Source of the DNA: a virus | Taxonomy: Duplodnaviria > Heunggongvirae > Uroviricota > Caudoviricetes | Reading direction: 5' to 3' (one strand) | Virus record (IMG/VR): IMGVR_UViG_2585427761_000006 | DNA: 4,108 bases | Shown: in pieces, positions 1-4,091 of the stretch | Numbering within the stretch: position 1 is the stretch's first letter | How the letters are laid out: each line of letters begins with the position of its first letter | Program-made: the position numbers and the translations under genes | The notes under the pieces: generated by a model | Told to the model about the DNA's origin: nothing | Databases searched by the model: none | What the model saw: the letters and a program-made list of their open reading frames with translations, nothing else

Positions 1-2243
1 TCCTGCTTCTGCATCTCCGTCAGGGTTTTCAGTTCGCCCTGCGCAGTCTGGTATTTCAGCTTCGCCAGCTCTGTATTCTGCCCCGCCAGTGCCAGTTGCT
101 CTTTCTGCTGCTTCAGCAGCCGGGAAAAACTGTCTTCCGCTTTTTCCGTCTCTGATTTTCCACCCCGGGATTTGGGTTTATTCGCCTCGTTATTGCGCCA
201 GGCTTCCAGGGCATTACTGATATAACGTTGTCTCGCCTCCTGATACGGTTCACCCACAAAACCGAGGTCATCCGCCGCATACCCCAGTCGGACACGCTCT
301 TTTTCTTCCCCTTTCAGTCTGGACAGGGCCAGCTCACGCTCTGTTTTTGTCAGGGCACTCTGCTGTTTATCATCCAGAGTGGCCTGTGGCAGCCGTAACG
401 GCACATTCACCAGTCCCTGCCGCTGCTGAAGCAGTTCATTACCCAGCCCCAGCAGACGGTTGAATTCCGTATGCTGACCATTCATAACCAGCATGGACTG
501 GTACACCTTATTCTGCTCTGCCGCCTGCTGACGAATTAACGCCACACGACGGTCTTCCAGCCCGGCAAGCACATCCTGAATGGACTGCGCTTTTTCCTGC
601 ATCTGTGCCAGACGGGACTGCTCAACGGCAAGCTGCTCTGTTGCCTGAGCAAGCCCTTCCGTTACGGTCTTCACCGAGGTCAGATGGTTTATCATGAATC
701 CGTCACCGGTCGTCCAGCCCGGGTTCGCCAGAACATACTGATATCCTGCGATTTTTTCCTGCAGGGATTTCACCCGACTGGCCTGTTCATCAATCAGCCG
801 GTTCTGCTCTGTCAGCGCCGCCCGTGTTCGTCCTTCATTATCTGAGGCTTCAGGCAAAGACATTGACGGCGTTTTATGCGCGATTTCATCTATCGTCAGT
901 GCATACTGGCGCGCAGACTCCCTGGCCTGCTCCTGATTCTGGTACAGCGTGTACCATGCTGCAGCCCCCAGCATCACCAGTCCGGGTACGCCACCAACCA
1001 GCCCCAGCGCACCGCTCATCAGACGTGAGCCCACCGCCGTTGTACTGTTCAGCGCATTCTGGGCGGCGCTTCTGGCAGCAATATTTCTGTTCAGGCGTTC
1101 CTGTGTGGCCGCCAGACGGGCCTCTGCAGCAATCTGCATCTCCGTCCCGCGGGCTGCCGCCACGGCCTGCTGAGCACGGTACACGGCTGCCCTTGCCCGC
1201 GCCGTGGCAATCTGCGTTCCCCTGAACTGTGCTTCCGCCAGTGCAACTTCATTACGTGCAGCCGTCACAAGTCCTGCCGTGGCAGACATCGCTCCGGAGG
1301 CCATATTGCCAAAGTACCGGGCAACCCCGACGGCAACCAGCGCGCCCACGGCTGTTGCCACATTATCAATCTGTCCGGCAACACCGTTCAGCACGCCGGA
1401 GAGCGTTTTCGTCACCCCGCTGGCCTCATTCGCACCACCCACCCAGGCCATAAAGGCGTTTTCCACCTTTGTGATCCCGTCAGAGACCGTTTCCGGCATG
1501 GCCGCGTATTCATCACGCAATACCTCCAGCTGGCTGATTAACGCAGGAACGACTTTATCCGCCGTCAGTTTGCCGTCGTCCGCCATCGCCTTAAGGTCTT
1601 TACGGGCCACGCCCATACCCGCAGCCAGTGCACGTACGATCCGGTCTCCGCTTTCATTGACCGAATTAAATTCCTCACCGCGTAACACACCCTGTGCCAG
1701 CGCCTGGCTGAACTGGGTGATCACCGAGCCCGCCTCTGCCGTACTGGCACCGGAGATTTTCAGCCCCGTGGAAATGGCCTCCGTCACCTTCAGCACATCA
1801 TCAGCACTGTAACCATATTCACGCATTGAGGCTGCCGAGCGGGCAAACAGGGCCGCATTATCTGAAAATGCCGTGCCCGTCCGCTGGCTGATATCCATCA
1901 GCACTTTCTGTGATGACGAAAATTCATCGGATGACTGCGACGCCTGTTTCAGTCGGGCATTCACGGAACTCCATTCATCGGCCAGAGAAATCAGGTGTCC
2001 GGTGGCAAAGGCACCTGCAAATGCCCCCGCCGTTCCGGCAGCTGAAGCGCGGATTTCCGTCAACTGGCTGTTCAGCTCAGCCAGGGCGCGTCGCTGCTCC
2101 CGGGCGACTGCGGCAGCCTGACGCCCGCCATTCTGCAGGGTCCGGTAATATTCACTGCCCATACGGGAAGCCCGCTGGATCTCCGACTGGAATGACTGCG
2201 AATTTGCCGAAATTTTGATAATCAGTTCACGTAACGTCGCCAT
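1..2243 (-). CDS. Phage tail length tape measure protein (lambda gpH-like), N-terminal 747 codons; 3' end lies beyond window position 1
   Basis: ATG at 2243..2241 (minus) preceded by GGAG at 2255..2252 with an 8-nt spacer. Manual reverse-complement translation gives MATLRELIIKISANSQSFQSEIQRASRMGSEYYRTLQNGG... and stays open to the window edge. Frame confirmed independently at 1500..1559 (DKVVPALISQLEVLRDEYAA), 661..720 (NPGWTTGDGFMINHLTS) and 3..59 (KLKYQTAQGELKTLTEMQKQ). Ala/Gln/Glu-rich, coiled-coil-like composition with a hydrophobic Gly/Ala/Leu segment is typical of tape measure proteins. Position directly downstream of G/GT matches lambda gene order. Confidence 0.85.
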   Translation of the reverse strand, partial: MATLRELIIKISANSQSFQSEIQRASRMGSEYYRTLQNGGRQAAAVAREQRRALAELNSQLTEIRASAAGTAGAFAGAFATGHLISLADEWSSVNARLKQASQSSDEFSSSQKVLMDISQRTGTAFSDNAALFARSAASMREYGYSADDVLKVTEAISTGLKISGASTAEAGSVITQFSQALAQGVLRGEEFNSVNESGDRIVRALAAGMGVARKDLKAMADDGKLTADKVVPALISQLEVLRDEYAAMPETVSDGITKVENAFMAWVGGANEASGVTKTLSGVLNGVAGQIDNVATAVGALVAVGVARYFGNMASGAMSATAGLVTAARNEVALAEAQFRGTQIATARARAAVYRAQQAVAAARGTEMQIAAEARLAATQERLNRNIAARSAAQNALNSTTAVGSRLMSGALGLVGGVPGLVMLGAAAWYTLYQNQEQARESARQYALTIDEIAHKTPSMSLPEASDNEGRTRAALTEQNRLIDEQASRVKSLQEKIAGYQYVLANPGWTTGDGFMINHLTSVKTVTEGLAQATEQLAVEQSRLAQMQEKAQSIQDVLAGLEDRRVALIRQQAAEQNKVYQSMLVMNGQHTEFNRLLGLGNELLQQRQGLVNVPLRLPQATLDDKQQSALTKTERELALSRLKGEEKERVRLGYAADDLGFVGEPYQEARQRYISNALEAWRNNEANKPKSRGGKSETEKAEDSFSRLLKQQKEQLALAGQNTELAKLKYQTAQGELKTLTEMQKQ

Positions 2244-2259: not shown

Positions 2260-2281
2260 AAAAAAAACCGCCACAGCGGTT
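2260..2281 (-). terminator. Intrinsic-terminator-like hairpin plus U-tract between GT stop and tape measure start (minus-strand sense)
   Basis: Minus strand reads AACCGC-tgtg-GCGGTT (6-bp stem, 4-nt loop; plus coordinates 2281..2266) followed by a T-run (plus-strand A8 at 2260..2267). It sits between the GT stop (2292..2290) and the SD of the tape measure gene. The stem is short, so termination is probably partial. Confidence 0.4.
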
Positions 2282-2289
2282 CTCATCAT

Positions 2290-2909
2290 TCATGACAGTG
2301 CTGCAAAGCTCAGCGCGTCTTCCAGCGCCGCAAACGGATCCACCTCCGGCTTATCCTCATCCTCGCCCCAGCAGAGCATGGCGCCCTTCAGTGCAACATT
2401 CATCCCCTGTGCCCCAAAAACCGCTTTCACGATCTGTGCATTACGGATATCCCCGCGCTCATCACCCAGCGGGGATACCCTGTCGAACTCCATCCACATC
2501 ATCGCCTCGCTCGCACTCAGGCTGTGCCGCAGTTCGGATAAGGTGCGCCCCAGACGGAGCGCAAGTCGCATCAGAAAGCGAATTTCCGGGCGGGCTACTT
2601 TTTTCTGGCCGACTCTGCATCAGCGATCAGTTCCAGTGCCTGACGCAGCAACCGGGCATGTACCGGACCATAGACGGCCAGCACCTGCTCACGGTCGTCC
2701 GGAGCGAACACCCGCTGCAGATCAGTATCACACAGGACATCGCAGAACAGCGTCACATCCGCTTCCAGGTTACGGCGGGTTTTCGCCACCACCGACAGGG
2801 TATCGTCATCCTCTCCATCACCATTGAGCACTTCCTGCCACAGATACCAGGCCTCTGCCGAAGGCTCCCGCAGCACCACGCTGACATTACCCCATTCCGG
2901 CACCTTCAC
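2290..2909 (-). CDS. Tail assembly chaperone GT fusion (lambda G-T-like), made by programmed -1 ribosomal frameshift at 2598..2604; about 206 aa
   Basis: The 0-frame G ORF ends ...ADAESARKK-TAG with the heptamer A AAA AAG immediately before the stop. The -1 frame from that point is open (KK-VARPEIRFLMRLALRLGRTLSELRHS...ALS) to TGA at 2292..2290. Frame arithmetic: G codon high positions are 2 mod 3, T-frame positions are 0 mod 3, which is a -1 shift on the minus-strand mRNA. A G/GT frameshift between the major tail and tape measure genes is a conserved feature of long-tailed phages. Confidence 0.75.
2595..2909 (-). CDS. Tail assembly chaperone G (lambda gpG-like), 104 aa, GTG start
   Basis: ORF (M)KVPEWGNVSVVLREPSAEAWYLWQEVL...ADAESARKK. 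The N-terminal motif EWGNVSVVLREPSAEA resembles, from memory, lambda gpG (..EHNGVTVTLSELSALQ..). Acidic, short, located between major tail and tape measure genes. The start is uncertain: there is no in-frame ATG, GTG at 2909 is the first start after the in-frame stop at 2993..2991, and the SD is weak. Confidence 0.7.
   Translation of the reverse strand: MKVPEWGNVSVVLREPSAEAWYLWQEVLNGDGEDDDTLSVVAKTRRNLEADVTLFCDVLCDTDLQRVFAPDDREQVLAVYGPVHARLLRQALELIADAESARKK
2598..2604 (-). promoter_or_regulatory. Programmed -1 frameshift slippery heptamer A AAA AAG (X XXY YYZ) at the 3' end of G
   Basis: Minus-strand sequence GCC AGA AAA AAG TAG. It is the same heptamer as the E. coli dnaX frameshift site, and the 0-frame stop lies directly 3' of it. 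The -1 frame continues into the T domain. Confidence 0.7.
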
Positions 2910-2974
2910 CGTTTTATGACGAAACCCCGACAGTCTGGCCAGCGCCAGCGTTTTCAGATCTTTTGCAATAAGCC

Positions 2975-3222
2975 TTATCCGCCCGCACCACTAACCGTCA
3001 CGGTACACGCAACAGACGTAACACTCTGCGCTGTTCTGCAGAATCCGTCACCACGCAGGTATAATCCCCCTTATCACCTGACTGCGTATTGGCTTTACTG
3101 AAAGTGTCAGTAGTCTGCCCCTCAACCGGCTGACCATCCTTCTTCCAGGCGTATTTATAAGGCGGCGTTCCCCCGTTAACACTGACTGACATTGTCAGCA
3201 GCGCACCGGTATTCACGGTAAG
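2975..3222 (-). other. Ig-like domain of the major tail protein; its final beta-strand (2975..3034) is encoded in the -1 frame
   Basis: In-frame part (3222..3031): LTVNTGALLTMSVSVNGGTPPYKYAWKKDGQPVEGQTTDTFSKANTQSGDKGDYTCVVTDSAEQ. The frame with codon highs at 1 mod 3 from 3034 reads TAQSVTSVACTVTVSGAGG then TAA at 2977..2975. This is the canonical Ig G-strand (S-V-T-S...A-x-L/V-T-V) expected right after the YxC strand. Confidence 0.6.
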
Positions 3223-3690
3223 TGTCTTATCCAGATTTTTCACAAACGCCAGCGGTACCACAAAGGACACCGGTTTACCCTTCAGACGAAGTGAAAACGT
3301 TGCAGCCACCACGCCGTTGGTACCGGATGACCAGGTGTGCTGACGCACTTCCGCCAGGAACTTAAAGCCCTTACCGGACGGAAACAGCACCTTAAACGCA
3401 TACAACGCGTCATTGTCATAGGCATCACGCAGGGCGTTCTGGGCCTGATTCAGATAAAAATTACCCGACATGGAAATCTCAGACGACGCCCCCAGACCGT
3501 TGATGTTCTCCTGCTCTGTGGAGCAGAGCGTGGTCACATCAATATCCTGTTTCTGACCGGCGGTGAACTGGACTTCCTTGATGGTGCAGTCCAGGCGCAG
3601 ATATTCCGCCTTATCCATGGTTTCAGCAGTCGCCGGGGCAGATGAAATCATCACCTGCGTCAGCTGTGAACGTTCATACAAAGCAGACAT
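2998..3690 (-). CDS. Major tail (tube) protein with C-terminal Ig-like domain (lambda gpV position), 230 aa as encoded
   Basis: ATG at 3690..3688 with AGGAGG at 3700..3695 (4-nt spacer). Protein MSALYERSQLTQVMISSAPATAETMDKAEY... The C-terminal part TPPYKYAWKKDGQPVEGQTTDTFSKANTQSGDKGDYTCVVTDSA is a recognisable Ig-like module (W...DG...DxGxYTC). Position upstream of G/GT/tape measure fits. The ORF-track version starts 21 codons earlier at a GTG (3753) that crosses the hairpin and SD, which I reject. The C-terminal 15 residues (EQRRVLRLLRVP) look frameshifted; see findings. Confidence 0.85.
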   Translation of the reverse strand: MSALYERSQLTQVMISSAPATAETMDKAEYLRLDCTIKEVQFTAGQKQDIDVTTLCSTEQENINGLGASSEISMSGNFYLNQAQNALRDAYDNDALYAFKVLFPSGKGFKFLAEVRQHTWSSGTNGVVAATFSLRLKGKPVSFVVPLAFVKNLDKTLTVNTGALLTMSVSVNGGTPPYKYAWKKDGQPVEGQTTDTFSKANTQSGDKGDYTCVVTDSAEQRRVLRLLRVP

Positions 3691-4091
3691 TCTGCCTCCT
3701 GATAATAAAAAACCCGCACGCGGCGGGGTATGGTTCTGTAGAAAAAAGTACACCGTGACCTGAAACTCCAGGGTTGCACGGTAACAGCGGTTTTCCGGAA
3801 TATAGTCTGCATTTCACTGACGGATCCCGGGGCCAGCAGCATTATGGCTTCACGGGCGTCCTGACGTATCTGACGCGCCTGCGTCACAGTCCCGGCATAA
3901 ACGTCTATCTGCACCGACACTGAGGACTCCGCCTGCCCGCCCATCACGTCCGCAGACACCGATGAAATCAGGCTGAAAACCACCCACGGAAGCGCCACCG
4001 ACGGCCTGCCATCCAGCAGGGGGACCACATACGGGTACACCTGCCCGCCGGCAAGATGCGCCAGATGAGGATACAAATCCGCCTCCGTCAT
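3660..4091 (-). CDS. Putative tail terminator / tail completion protein (lambda gpU position); 3' end uncertain
   Basis: ATG at 4091..4089 with an in-frame stop 12 nt upstream. Protein MTEADLYPHLAHLAGGQVYPYVVPLLDGRPSVALPWVVFSLISSVSADVMGGQAESSVSVQIDVYAGTVTQARQIRQDAREAIMLL... has a beta-rich small-protein character and sits immediately upstream of the major tail gene. The last ~34 codons (..SFRSRCTFFYRTIPRRVRVFYYQEAECLLCMNVHS) run through the hairpin/U-tract and SD and overlap the major tail gene by 31 nt, and look non-native. Confidence 0.55.
   Translation of the reverse strand: MTEADLYPHLAHLAGGQVYPYVVPLLDGRPSVALPWVVFSLISSVSADVMGGQAESSVSVQIDVYAGTVTQARQIRQDAREAIMLLAPGSVSEMQTIFRKTAVTVQPWSFRSRCTFFYRTIPRRVRVFYYQEAECLLCMNVHS
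3695..3700 (-). promoter_or_regulatory. Shine-Dalgarno (AGGAGG) for the major tail protein gene
   Basis: Minus strand AGGAGGcagaATG. Perfect SD complement, 4-nt spacer. Confidence 0.6.
3707..3727 (-). terminator. Intrinsic-terminator-like hairpin plus U-tract directly upstream of the major tail gene SD (minus-strand sense)
   Basis: Minus strand reads CCCGC-cgcgt-GCGGG (5-bp all-GC stem; plus coordinates 3727..3713) followed by TTTTTT (plus-strand A6 at 3707..3712), then ATTATC, AGGAGG and ATG. The plus-strand sense lacks a T-tract after the stem, so it is orientation-specific. Confidence 0.45.

What the first reader, a model, noticed from the sequence alone, without database searches (positions are those of the whole stretch)
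2290..2909. G/GT tail assembly chaperone pair with -1 frameshift at A AAA AAG directly before the G stop codon
Seen directly: the heptamer A AAA AAG (2604..2598) is the last two sense codons of G and is followed by TAG. The -1 frame is open for 102 further codons to TGA at 2292..2290, giving a fusion of about 206 aa. From established knowledge, a conserved programmed translational frameshift between the two genes located between the major tail and tape measure genes is near-universal in long-tailed phages, and A AAA AAG is a proven high-efficiency -1 site (E. coli dnaX). The site differs from lambda's G GGA AAG. The adjacent 0-frame stop may act as the stimulatory element, since I see no strong downstream stem-loop.
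Basis: partly seen in the sequence, partly recalled or inferred. Interest (0 to 1): 0.5.

Follow-up and report, generated by a model that had tools for sequence, protein, structure and literature searches.

The report
Known phage tail-chaperone G/GT frameshift site
This is the well-known programmed -1 ribosomal frameshift that lets a lambda/HK97-type phage make two tail-assembly chaperones (G and the longer GT) from overlapping genes; this exact sequence has already been shown in a published reporter assay to shift frame about 7% of the time, so it is real but ordinary.

Summary
On the minus strand the heptamer A AAA AAG (2604..2598) forms the last two sense codons of the upstream gene and is followed by TAG (2597..2595). 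The -1 frame is open from 2619 to TGA at 2292..2290.

The upstream protein is an HK97 gp13-type tail assembly chaperone (Pfam PF06222, E 5.5e-61; PDB 2OB9, E 3.4e-46). The -1 frame encodes a lambda-T-type domain (PF06223, E 2.7e-17). The pair lies between the major tail and tape measure genes.

An in-phase slippery site at the homologous position recurs in relatives from Escherichia, Burkholderia, Bordetella and Moraxella phages. 73 of 80 IMG/VR relatives carry A AAA AAG TAG.

Window 2624..2550 is identical to a 75-nt cassette tested by Antonov et al. 2013 (PMC3711429, Table S2). That cassette gave 7% ± 0.79 frameshifting in E. coli.

- G starts 60 nt further upstream, at 2969, so the fusion is 226 aa, not 206.
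- That start is ATG in relatives but ATT in this window.
- The measured efficiency is modest, not high.
- A stop codon next to the heptamer is common in the family but not universal.

The window also carries frameshift lesions in two neighbouring tail genes.

Verdict: already known, low interest.

The parts
2595..2969 (-). Gene G: HK97 gp13-type tail assembly chaperone, 124 codons plus TAG. The start codon at 2969..2967 is ATG in relatives and ATT in this window.
   Evidence: PF06222 Phage_TAC_1, E 5.5e-61, residues 3-124 on model positions 3-124 of 124. phrog_344, E 1.3e-45. PDB 2OB9 'Tail assembly chaperone', E 3.4e-46. Start position taken from annotated relatives and the alignment.
2598..2604 (-). 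Slippery heptamer A AAA AAG, in phase with G (codons AAA AAG preceded by the A of AGA).
   Evidence: In-phase A AAA AAG is also present in PhiR49_2, Bcep176, phiE125, phi644-2, PHB09 and Mcat17, and in 73 of 80 IMG/VR loci. It lies inside the cassette that gave 7% frameshifting.
2595..2597 (-). G stop codon TAG, directly 3' of the heptamer and followed by C.
   Evidence: A stop next to the slip site is seen in the close relatives, PhiR49_2, the Klebsiella phages and Mcat9. It is not adjacent in the Burkholderia and Bordetella phages.
2595..2619 (-). Overlap window: the only stretch where both the G frame and the -1 (T) frame are open. The -1 frame is closed upstream by TGA at 2622..2620.
   Evidence: overlap of 25 nt.
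2290..2604 (-). T-frame segment: 104 codons including the two slip-site lysines, then TGA 2292..2290. It encodes a lambda-T-type domain.
   Evidence: PF06223 Phage_tail_T, E 2.7e-17. phrog_337, E 6.4e-40, and phrog_14766 profile positions 123-221. Protein conservation starts right at the slip site, upstream of the ATG at 2571.
2290..2969 (-). Predicted GT fusion product, 226 aa, with junction ...ESARKK-VARPEIRFLM...
   Evidence: The phrog_14766 profile of 224 positions spans both halves. Bcep176 gp69' is annotated as a joined CDS. The mEp234 gp12 note reads 'translated due to a -1 frameshift'.
2975..3690 (-). Upstream neighbour: major tail subunit with a C-terminal Ig-like domain. In the window it is frameshifted by a 1-nt deletion near 3030, so the ORF as it stands ends at 2998.
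   Evidence: phrog_158, E 1.6e-108. Ig-like and tail tube Pfam matches. Alignment and translations.
1..2243 (-). Downstream neighbour: tape measure protein. ATG at 2243..2241; the ORF is open to the window edge (747 codons).
   Evidence: PF06120 Phage_HK97_TLTM, E 4.6e-91, and PF20155 TMP_3, E 2.1e-58.
2544..2592 (-). Two small predicted RNA hairpins 3' of the slip site. The first (2592..2567) has a 5-nt spacer and is rich in A-U and G-U pairs. The second (2563..2544) starts about 35 nt downstream. Any role as a stimulator is unproven.
   Evidence: The 121-nt fold has z -0.49 and the 63-nt fold has z -2.0. RNAalifold keeps only the distal 6-bp stem, with no compensatory changes. Pair counts are inconclusive.

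Best explanation
This is the G/GT tail assembly chaperone pair of an HK97/lambda-type siphovirus tail module. The module is widespread in Stx-converting phages and E. coli lambdoid prophages.

Most ribosomes translate G (2969..2598) and terminate at TAG, making the 124-aa chaperone. A minority, about 7% in a reporter, slip back one nucleotide on A AAA AAG. The lysine tRNA(s) re-pair with AAA AAA, the next codon read is GTA, and 102 more codons are translated. The product is a 226-aa GT protein, ...SARKK-VARPEIR....

By analogy with lambda, G and the G part of GT coat the tape measure protein. The T domain recruits the major tail subunit. The fixed G:GT ratio set by the slip frequency is what the frameshift is for, and neither protein ends up in the virion.

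**Shown here:** the anatomy, the family membership of both halves, the conservation of the two-frame layout and slip site, and identity to a cassette with measured frameshifting.

**Inferred:** ribosomal rather than transcriptional slippage, and the roles of G and T, which are transferred from lambda.

**Caveat:** in this particular window the canonical G start is ATT and two neighbouring tail genes are frameshifted. The signal is intact, but the module may no longer be functional here.
For: - **Sequence anatomy:**
- **Families:** G matches PF06222 (E 5.5e-61) and T matches PF06223 (E 2.7e-17). PDB 2OB9 matches at E 3.4e-46. phrog_14766 spans G and T as one 224-position profile.
- **Gene order:** the pair sits between the major tail and tape measure genes.
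- **Abundance:** 92 phage records and 1,246 of 5,426 E. coli genomes carry the region at 90-99% identity.
- **Conservation of the slip site:** it is in phase and at the homologous position in relatives of 30-67% identity from four genera. 73 of 80 IMG/VR loci have A AAA AAG TAG, and nearby positions vary while the heptamer and stop do not.
- **Constraint on where the shift can occur:** in PhiR49_2 the -1 frame opens only at the heptamer.
- **No sign of independent T initiation:** T-frame protein conservation begins at the slip site, 11 codons before the ATG at 2571. That ATG has no Shine-Dalgarno sequence, and the methionine is F in the Moraxella phages.
- **Existing annotation:** Bcep176 gp69' is a joined CDS and the mEp234 note says '-1 frameshift'.
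- **Experiment:** Antonov et al. 2013 (PMC3711429) tested a cassette identical to window 2624..2550 and measured 7% ± 0.79.
- **Function of G and GT in lambda:** summarised in PMC5009743.
Against: - No direct protein evidence exists from this genome.
- The reporter assay does not separate ribosomal from transcriptional slippage.
- In this window the G start codon is ATT, a variant not found in the 93 loci fetched up to that point, in IMG/VR, in the GTDB species representatives, or at full length in 5,426 E. coli genomes.
- The adjacent tail completion and major tail genes carry 1-nt deletions, so the element may be a relic here.
- Most database records still annotate T as a separate ORF starting at the ATG equivalent to 2571.
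Confidence: 0.93

Rival explanations
1. T is made on its own, by initiation at ATG 2571..2569, as most automated annotations show. The A-run would then be incidental.
For: PGAP and several phage records annotate a 93-aa 'tail assembly protein T' from that ATG. In the Klebsiella relatives a T-frame ATG lies 2 nt after the G stop, so coupled re-initiation is conceivable in that lineage.
Against: - There is no Shine-Dalgarno sequence before ATG 2571; the upstream sequence is CCCGGAAATTCGCTTTCTG.
- T-frame protein conservation (KKV..P..RFL) runs from the heptamer to that Met.
- The Met is F in the Moraxella phages.
- An in-phase slippery site is conserved across genera.
- The identical cassette gives a 7% fused product.
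Confidence: 0.04
2. The frame change happens at the RNA level. RNA polymerase slips on the A6 run, and some transcripts gain or lose an A, putting T in frame.
For: The GST-MBP reporter cannot tell transcriptional from translational slippage. The PhiR49_2 group has a longer run of 8 A's.
Against: Productive transcriptional realignment is usually described for homopolymers of eight or more (PMC3711429). This run has six A's. A AAA AAG is the proven ribosomal site of dnaX. Relatives use G GGA AAG, which is not a homopolymer, at the same place with 6% efficiency.
Confidence: 0.04
3. The product is the same but the slip mode differs. A single tRNA-Lys slips from AAG to AAA in the P site while the weak stop TAG-C waits in the A site (a 'shifty stop'), rather than two tRNAs slipping in tandem.
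For: The stop is directly adjacent here, in PhiR49_2, in Mcat9 (A AAA AAC TAA) and in the Klebsiella phages, where only A AAG TAA remains and the -1 frame is open for just 10 nt. No strong RNA stimulator was found.
Against: The stop is 10-11 codons downstream in the Burkholderia and Bordetella relatives and 1 codon downstream in HK542 and Mcat17. HK542-type G GGA AAG CCG TAA still shifts at 6%. The full X XXY YYZ heptamer is conserved, which a one-tRNA slip would not need.
Confidence: 0.2
4. In this particular genome the element is a non-functional relic. The signal is intact, but the tail module belongs to a decaying prophage or a poor assembly, and no useful G/GT is made.
For: - The G start is ATG in relatives and ATT here.
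- A 1-nt deletion plus a lost stop affect the gp17-like gene, and a 1-nt deletion affects the major tail gene.
- No E. coli genome matches this part at 99% or better.
Against: All indels lie in short homopolymers, so they may be sequencing errors. ATT can initiate at low level. G, T and the tape measure frame are otherwise intact.
Confidence: 0.4

Closest known systems
Phage HK97 gp13 / gp13-14 (tail assembly chaperone and its -1 frameshift extension; gp13 structure PDB 2OB9)
   Same: Same protein families for both halves (PF06222 and PF06223). G matches 2OB9 at E 3.4e-46 over its full length. The position between the major tail and tape measure genes is the same, and the slip point is homologous.
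   Different: HK97-like phages (mEp234, about 60% identity) have CGG GAA AAG at the homologous place and a G tail 7 codons longer, rather than A AAA AAG followed directly by a stop.
Phage lambda G / GT (slip site G GGA AAG; G:GT ratio about 30:1)
   Same: Same logic and gene position. The T domain belongs to the same Pfam family (PF06223). There is no strong RNA stimulator. The roles are G on the tape measure and T on the major tail protein (the lambda slip site is from my own knowledge of Levin et al. 1993).
   Different: Here G matches only PF06222 Phage_TAC_1 in Pfam. That lambda G belongs to a separate family is from my own knowledge and was not tested here. The heptamer differs, the stop is directly adjacent, and the measured efficiency is about twice lambda's (7% against roughly 3-4%).
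GeneTack cluster 'Phage_TAC' [862991913], fs-gene 15618692 (Antonov et al. 2013, NAR, PMC3711429)
   Same: The listed 75-nt insert is identical to window 2624..2550 on the minus strand. It gave 7% ± 0.79 frameshifting in E. coli.
   Different: That was a reporter context, not the phage. The source gene of the cassette is a relative with an ordinary ATG start for G.
E. coli dnaX frameshift site (A AAA AAG; about 50% efficiency)
   Same: Identical heptamer and the same host translation apparatus.
   Different: dnaX has an upstream Shine-Dalgarno-like stimulator and a strong stem-loop 3' of the site. Here no SD-like sequence lies upstream and only a weak hairpin of doubtful significance lies downstream. 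Efficiency is 7%. In dnaX the shifted product is the shorter one.

Membership tests
G/GT tail assembly chaperone pair with programmed -1 frameshift (Xu, Hendrix & Duda 2004 class) | Two overlapping ORFs located between the major tail gene and the tape measure gene | tested here: met
   The order is major tail (3690..2975), G (2969..2595), T frame (2604..2290), tape measure (2243..1)..
G/GT tail assembly chaperone pair with programmed -1 frameshift (Xu, Hendrix & Duda 2004 class) | The upstream ORF is a tail assembly chaperone | tested here: met
   PF06222, 204.4 bits against a cut-off of 25. PDB 2OB9, E 3.4e-46.
G/GT tail assembly chaperone pair with programmed -1 frameshift (Xu, Hendrix & Duda 2004 class) | The downstream ORF is in the -1 frame, encodes a conserved T-type domain, and is conserved upstream of any start codon of its own | tested here: met
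   PF06223, 63.4 bits against a cut-off of 25.9. The alignment of 9 T-frame segments has 12 invariant columns, and conservation starts at the slip site. There is no SD before ATG 2571.
G/GT tail assembly chaperone pair with programmed -1 frameshift (Xu, Hendrix & Duda 2004 class) | An in-phase slippery sequence lies inside the short overlap, and the arrangement is conserved in divergent relatives | tested here: met
   A AAA AAG lies in a 25-nt overlap. [quoted passage not shown]
G/GT tail assembly chaperone pair with programmed -1 frameshift (Xu, Hendrix & Duda 2004 class) | A frameshifted fusion product is actually made | tested here: met
   The wet assay was not run here. What was checked here is that window 2624..2550 is identical to the published cassette. 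The measurement of 7% ± 0.79 in a GST-MBP reporter comes from PMC3711429 Table S2.
G/GT tail assembly chaperone pair with programmed -1 frameshift (Xu, Hendrix & Duda 2004 class) | GT is required for tail assembly, and G and GT are absent from virions, in this phage type | not testable with these tools
   Known for lambda only (PMC5009743). Transferred here by homology of the T domain.
G/GT tail assembly chaperone pair with programmed -1 frameshift (Xu, Hendrix & Duda 2004 class) | An intact, expressible G gene in this window (canonical start codon) | tested here: not met
   Codon 2969..2967 is ATT here and ATG in relatives. The ATT variant is absent from the 93 loci fetched up to that point, from IMG/VR, from the GTDB species representatives and, at full length, from 5,426 E. 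coli genomes. This concerns the state of this copy, not the identity of the element.
dnaX-type stimulated -1 frameshift site | A AAA AAG heptamer | tested here: met
dnaX-type stimulated -1 frameshift site | A Shine-Dalgarno-like stimulator about 10 nt upstream | tested here: not met
   The upstream sequence is CTGATGCAGAGTCGGCCAG, with no GGAGG-like element. Bcep176 does have GGGAGG 7 nt upstream, so this feature is lineage-specific.
dnaX-type stimulated -1 frameshift site | A stable stem-loop 5-8 nt downstream | tested here: inconclusive
   A weak hairpin rich in A-U and G-U pairs lies at 2592..2567. The 63-nt fold has z -2.0 and the 121-nt fold has z -0.49. There are no compensatory changes, pair counts are not decisive, and there is no Rfam frameshift element.

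The most novel reading that the evidence does not exclude
The stop codon directly 3' of the slip site is a working part of the signal. A single lysine tRNA would slip in the P site while the weak stop waits in the A site. Under this reading the HK97-type family shows an evolutionary series, from full tandem-slip heptamers far from the stop (Burkholderia, Bordetella) to a minimal 'A AAG + stop' site (Klebsiella phages). In the Klebsiella group T might alternatively be made by coupled re-initiation at an ATG 2 nt after the stop.
Probability: 0.2. Interest if true: 0.3.

Novelty: already known. Interest (0 to 1): 0.08.

Why it matters
It matters mainly for annotation. Most records for this very common Stx-phage and E. 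coli prophage tail module still list 'tail assembly protein T' as a separate 93-aa ORF. The real product is a 226-aa G-T fusion made by a -1 frameshift.

Nothing new about recoding follows from this window. The phenomenon, the family and even this exact sequence have been published and measured.

The only mildly open point is mechanistic: whether the adjacent stop codon contributes to the shift.

Tried and rejected
- **NCBIfam:** no model matched G, T, the major tail protein or the gp17-like protein.
- **Rfam:** no frameshift element was found. The only match is a sub-threshold isrK hit over the T 3' end and terminator (23.5 bits against 50). I regard it as driven by the hairpin and T-run.
- **RNA stimulator:** the 121-nt fold is no better than shuffles (z -0.49). 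RNAalifold on 8 relatives keeps only a 6-bp stem about 36 nt downstream, with no compensatory pairs. That stem lies in the codons of the invariant LALR.GRT motif. A hairpin with a 5-nt spacer is possible but unproven.
- **Source of the window:** exact-match scans for the ATT-start variant in the GTDB species representatives and in IMG/VR found nothing. No complete E. coli genome has it at full length.
- **Xu et al. 2004 (Mol Cell):** I could not find the full text in the paper search and used it only as cited in PMC5009743 and PMC3711429.
- **Pseudogene reading:** a single ancestral gene broken by a mutation is rejected. The two-frame layout with a slippery site is conserved across genera.
- **Technical failures:** two protein-family calls failed on a wrong tape measure frame, and one script failed on a file name.

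Full report
**Observation**

All genes in the window are on the minus strand. [quoted passage not shown] The -1 frame read from 2604 gives KKVARPEIRFLMRLALRLGRTL...FAALS and stops at TGA 2292..2290, 102 codons beyond the two lysines. Upstream, the -1 frame is closed by TGA at 2622..2620. Only 25 nt (2619..2595) are open in both frames, and the A-run is the only slippery sequence there. AAAAAAG is expected 0.45 times in the whole window on both strands. Finding it in phase inside a 25-nt overlap is not a chance feature.

**What the two frames encode**

- The upstream protein, taken from the start used by relatives (2969), matches Pfam PF06222 Phage_TAC_1 over its whole length (E 5.5e-61). It also matches phrog_344 'tail assembly chaperone' and the solved structure 2OB9 'Tail assembly chaperone' (E 3.4e-46).
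- The -1 frame segment matches PF06223 Phage_tail_T 'Minor tail protein T' (63.4 bits against a cut-off of 25.9) and phrog_337.
- One PHROG family, phrog_14766, has a 224-position profile. G matches positions 2-122 and the T frame matches positions 123-221. Fused G-T proteins of this family are therefore already deposited.
- The neighbours are a major tail subunit with a C-terminal Ig-like domain upstream, and an HK97-type tape measure protein downstream (PF06120, E 4.6e-91).

**Relatives**

The region is 97-98% identical to 92 phage records. These are mostly Stx1a-, Stx2a- and Stx2c-converting phages, along with BP-4795, phage 2851 and Lys8385Vzw. It is 90-99% identical to prophages in 1,246 of 5,426 complete E. 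coli genomes. Those records annotate 'tail assembly chaperone' (124 aa) followed by a separate 93-aa 'tail assembly protein T' starting at the ATG equivalent to 2571.

A tblastn search with the fused protein finds 232 phage records. Most matches come as two pieces, one for each half of the query.

I extracted the G/T junction from 16 phage and prophage records:

| Relatives | Junction |
|---|---|
| Window and close relatives | A AAA AAG TAG |
| PhiR49_2 (67% identity) | A AAA AAG TAG; the -1 frame opens exactly at the A-run |
| Burkholderia Bcep176, phiE125, phi644-2; Bordetella PHB09 (36-41%) | in-phase A AAA AAG, 10-11 codons before the G stop |
| Moraxella Mcat17 | A AAA AAG GAC TAA |
| Moraxella Mcat9 | A AAA AAC TAA |
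| HK542 | G GGA AAG CCG TAA |
| HK97-like mEp234 | CGG GAA AAG at the homologous position |
| Three Klebsiella phages | GCA AAG TAA |

Among 80 IMG/VR loci, 73 have A AAA AAG TAG and 2 have A AAA AAA TAG. Positions just upstream vary while the heptamer and stop do not.

The T-frame proteins align from the very first residue after the slip (KKV..P..RFLM.LALRLGRTL.EL) and share 12 invariant columns. Conservation thus begins 11 codons before the ATG at 2571. That ATG has no Shine-Dalgarno sequence, and the methionine is phenylalanine in the Moraxella phages. Bcep176 gp69' is annotated as a joined CDS, 'alternative C-terminus for gp69; lambda T equivalent'. The mEp234 record says 'translated due to a -1 frameshift'.

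**Published experiment on this exact sequence**

Antonov et al. 2013 (NAR 41:6514, PMC3711429) describe a GeneTack cluster, 'phage tail assembly chaperone', of 41 frameshifted genes similar to an HK97 protein. They tested two members in a GST-MBP reporter in E. coli. [quoted passage not shown] Its efficiency was 7% ± 0.79. A second insert with G GGA AAG CCG TAA gave 6% ± 0.61. The first insert is identical to window 2624..2550 on the minus strand, with zero mismatches.

**Mechanism**

The best-supported reading is ordinary programmed -1 ribosomal frameshifting. Lysine tRNAs on AAA AAG re-pair with A AAA AA, the next codon read is GTA, and the ribosome continues for 102 codons.

The run has six A's. 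Transcriptional realignment is usually described for runs of eight or more. The non-homopolymeric G GGA AAG does the same job in a relative. A AAA AAG is also the proven ribosomal site of dnaX.

No strong stimulator is evident:
- No SD-like sequence lies upstream.
- The 121-nt fold has z -0.49.
- There is no Rfam frameshift element.
- RNAalifold keeps only a 6-bp stem about 36 nt downstream, without compensatory changes, in the codons of the invariant LALR.GRT motif.
- A weak hairpin with a 5-nt spacer (2592..2567) gives z -2.0 on 63 nt, but the comparative counts are inconclusive.

A 7% efficiency fits an unstimulated or weakly stimulated A AAA AAG.

The suggestion that the adjacent stop helps is untested. 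Adjacency recurs in several lineages but is absent in the Burkholderia and Bordetella relatives.

Function is transferred from lambda. G and the G part of GT bind the tape measure protein. The T domain binds the major tail protein. The ratio matters, and neither protein is in the virion (PMC5009743).

**Corrections and the state of this copy**

Relatives start at the position of 2969, so G is 124 aa and GT is 226 aa.

In this window that codon is ATT. The ATT variant is absent from the 93 loci fetched up to that point, from IMG/VR, from the GTDB species representatives and, at full length, from 5,426 E. coli genomes.

The window also carries lesions in neighbouring genes:
- The gp17-like tail completion gene has a 1-nt deletion (GG to G, about 3807), and its stop codon has become TAC (3750..3748).
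- The major tail gene has a 1-nt deletion (CC to C, about 3030). This replaces the last 21 residues of the Ig-like domain with RRVLRLLRVP.

These lesions may reflect prophage decay or homopolymer sequencing errors. I cannot tell which. The frameshift signal and the G, T and tape measure frames are otherwise intact.

**Verdict**

The element is a member of the HK97 gp13/gp14 branch of the G/GT frameshift class. Its T domain falls in the same Pfam family, PF06223 'Minor tail protein T', to which lambda T belongs by my own knowledge (not tested here). It is already known, down to a published efficiency for the identical sequence. Interest is low. The residual open point is whether the adjacent stop contributes to the shift, together with the minimal or alternative arrangement seen in the Klebsiella relatives.

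Noticed in passing
window 2967..2969 (minus strand): The start codon of G is ATT here and ATG in all close relatives. The ATT variant was not found in the 93 loci fetched up to that point, in IMG/VR, in the GTDB species representatives, or at full length in 5,426 complete E. coli genomes.
   Followed up: yes
window 3660..4091 (minus strand); lesions near 3807 and at 3748..3750: The gp17-like tail completion gene has a 1-nt deletion (GG to G) after ...SEMQ, and its stop codon (TAA or TGA in relatives) has become TAC. The ORF therefore runs on to 3660, overlapping the start of the major tail gene. The original frame now has no stop before the major tail ATG.
   Followed up: partly
window 2975..3690 (minus strand); lesion near 3030: The major tail subunit gene has a 1-nt deletion (CC to C). 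This replaces the last 21 residues of its C-terminal Ig-like domain (…QPQSITSDACTVTVNGAGG in relatives) with RRVLRLLRVP. All four 1-nt deletions in the window lie in short homopolymers, so they could reflect either prophage decay or sequencing error.
   Followed up: partly
L006 781..800; L094 and L095 about 681..700: Klebsiella phage relatives (52-55% identity) lack a full heptamer. Their G ends GCA AAG TAA, the -1 frame is open for only 10 nt, and a T-frame ATG lies 2 nt after the stop. This is either a minimal A AAG + stop slip site or coupled re-initiation.
   Followed up: partly
L096 (Moraxella phage Mcat9) about 701..719; L008 (Bcep176) about 775..802: Mcat9 uses A AAA AAC directly before TAA. 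Bcep176 has a GGGAGG Shine-Dalgarno-like sequence 7 nt upstream of its A AAA AAG, which resembles the dnaX upstream stimulator and is absent from the window.
   Followed up: no
window 2261..2328 (minus strand): There is a sub-threshold Rfam match to the isrK Hfq-binding sRNA (23.5 bits against a gathering score of 50, E 0.0014-0.0084). It covers the 3' end of T and a terminator-like hairpin, AACCGC-UGUG-GCGGUU plus a T-run (2281..2260), just before the tape measure gene. It is probably driven by the hairpin and T-run. The terminator scan did not list this hairpin.
   Followed up: partly
window 3713..3727 (minus strand): A terminator-like hairpin, CCCGCCGCGTGCGGG plus a T-run, lies between the tail completion gene and the major tail gene. 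Related HK97-like records annotate rho-independent terminators inside the tail gene block as well.
   Followed up: no
window 1..1600 (minus strand, tape measure gene): Identity to the closest E. coli prophage falls to 92-96% in parts of the tape measure gene (bins at 200, 1000-1400), against 98-100% elsewhere. This suggests mosaic exchange within the gene. There are no indels there.
   Followed up: no
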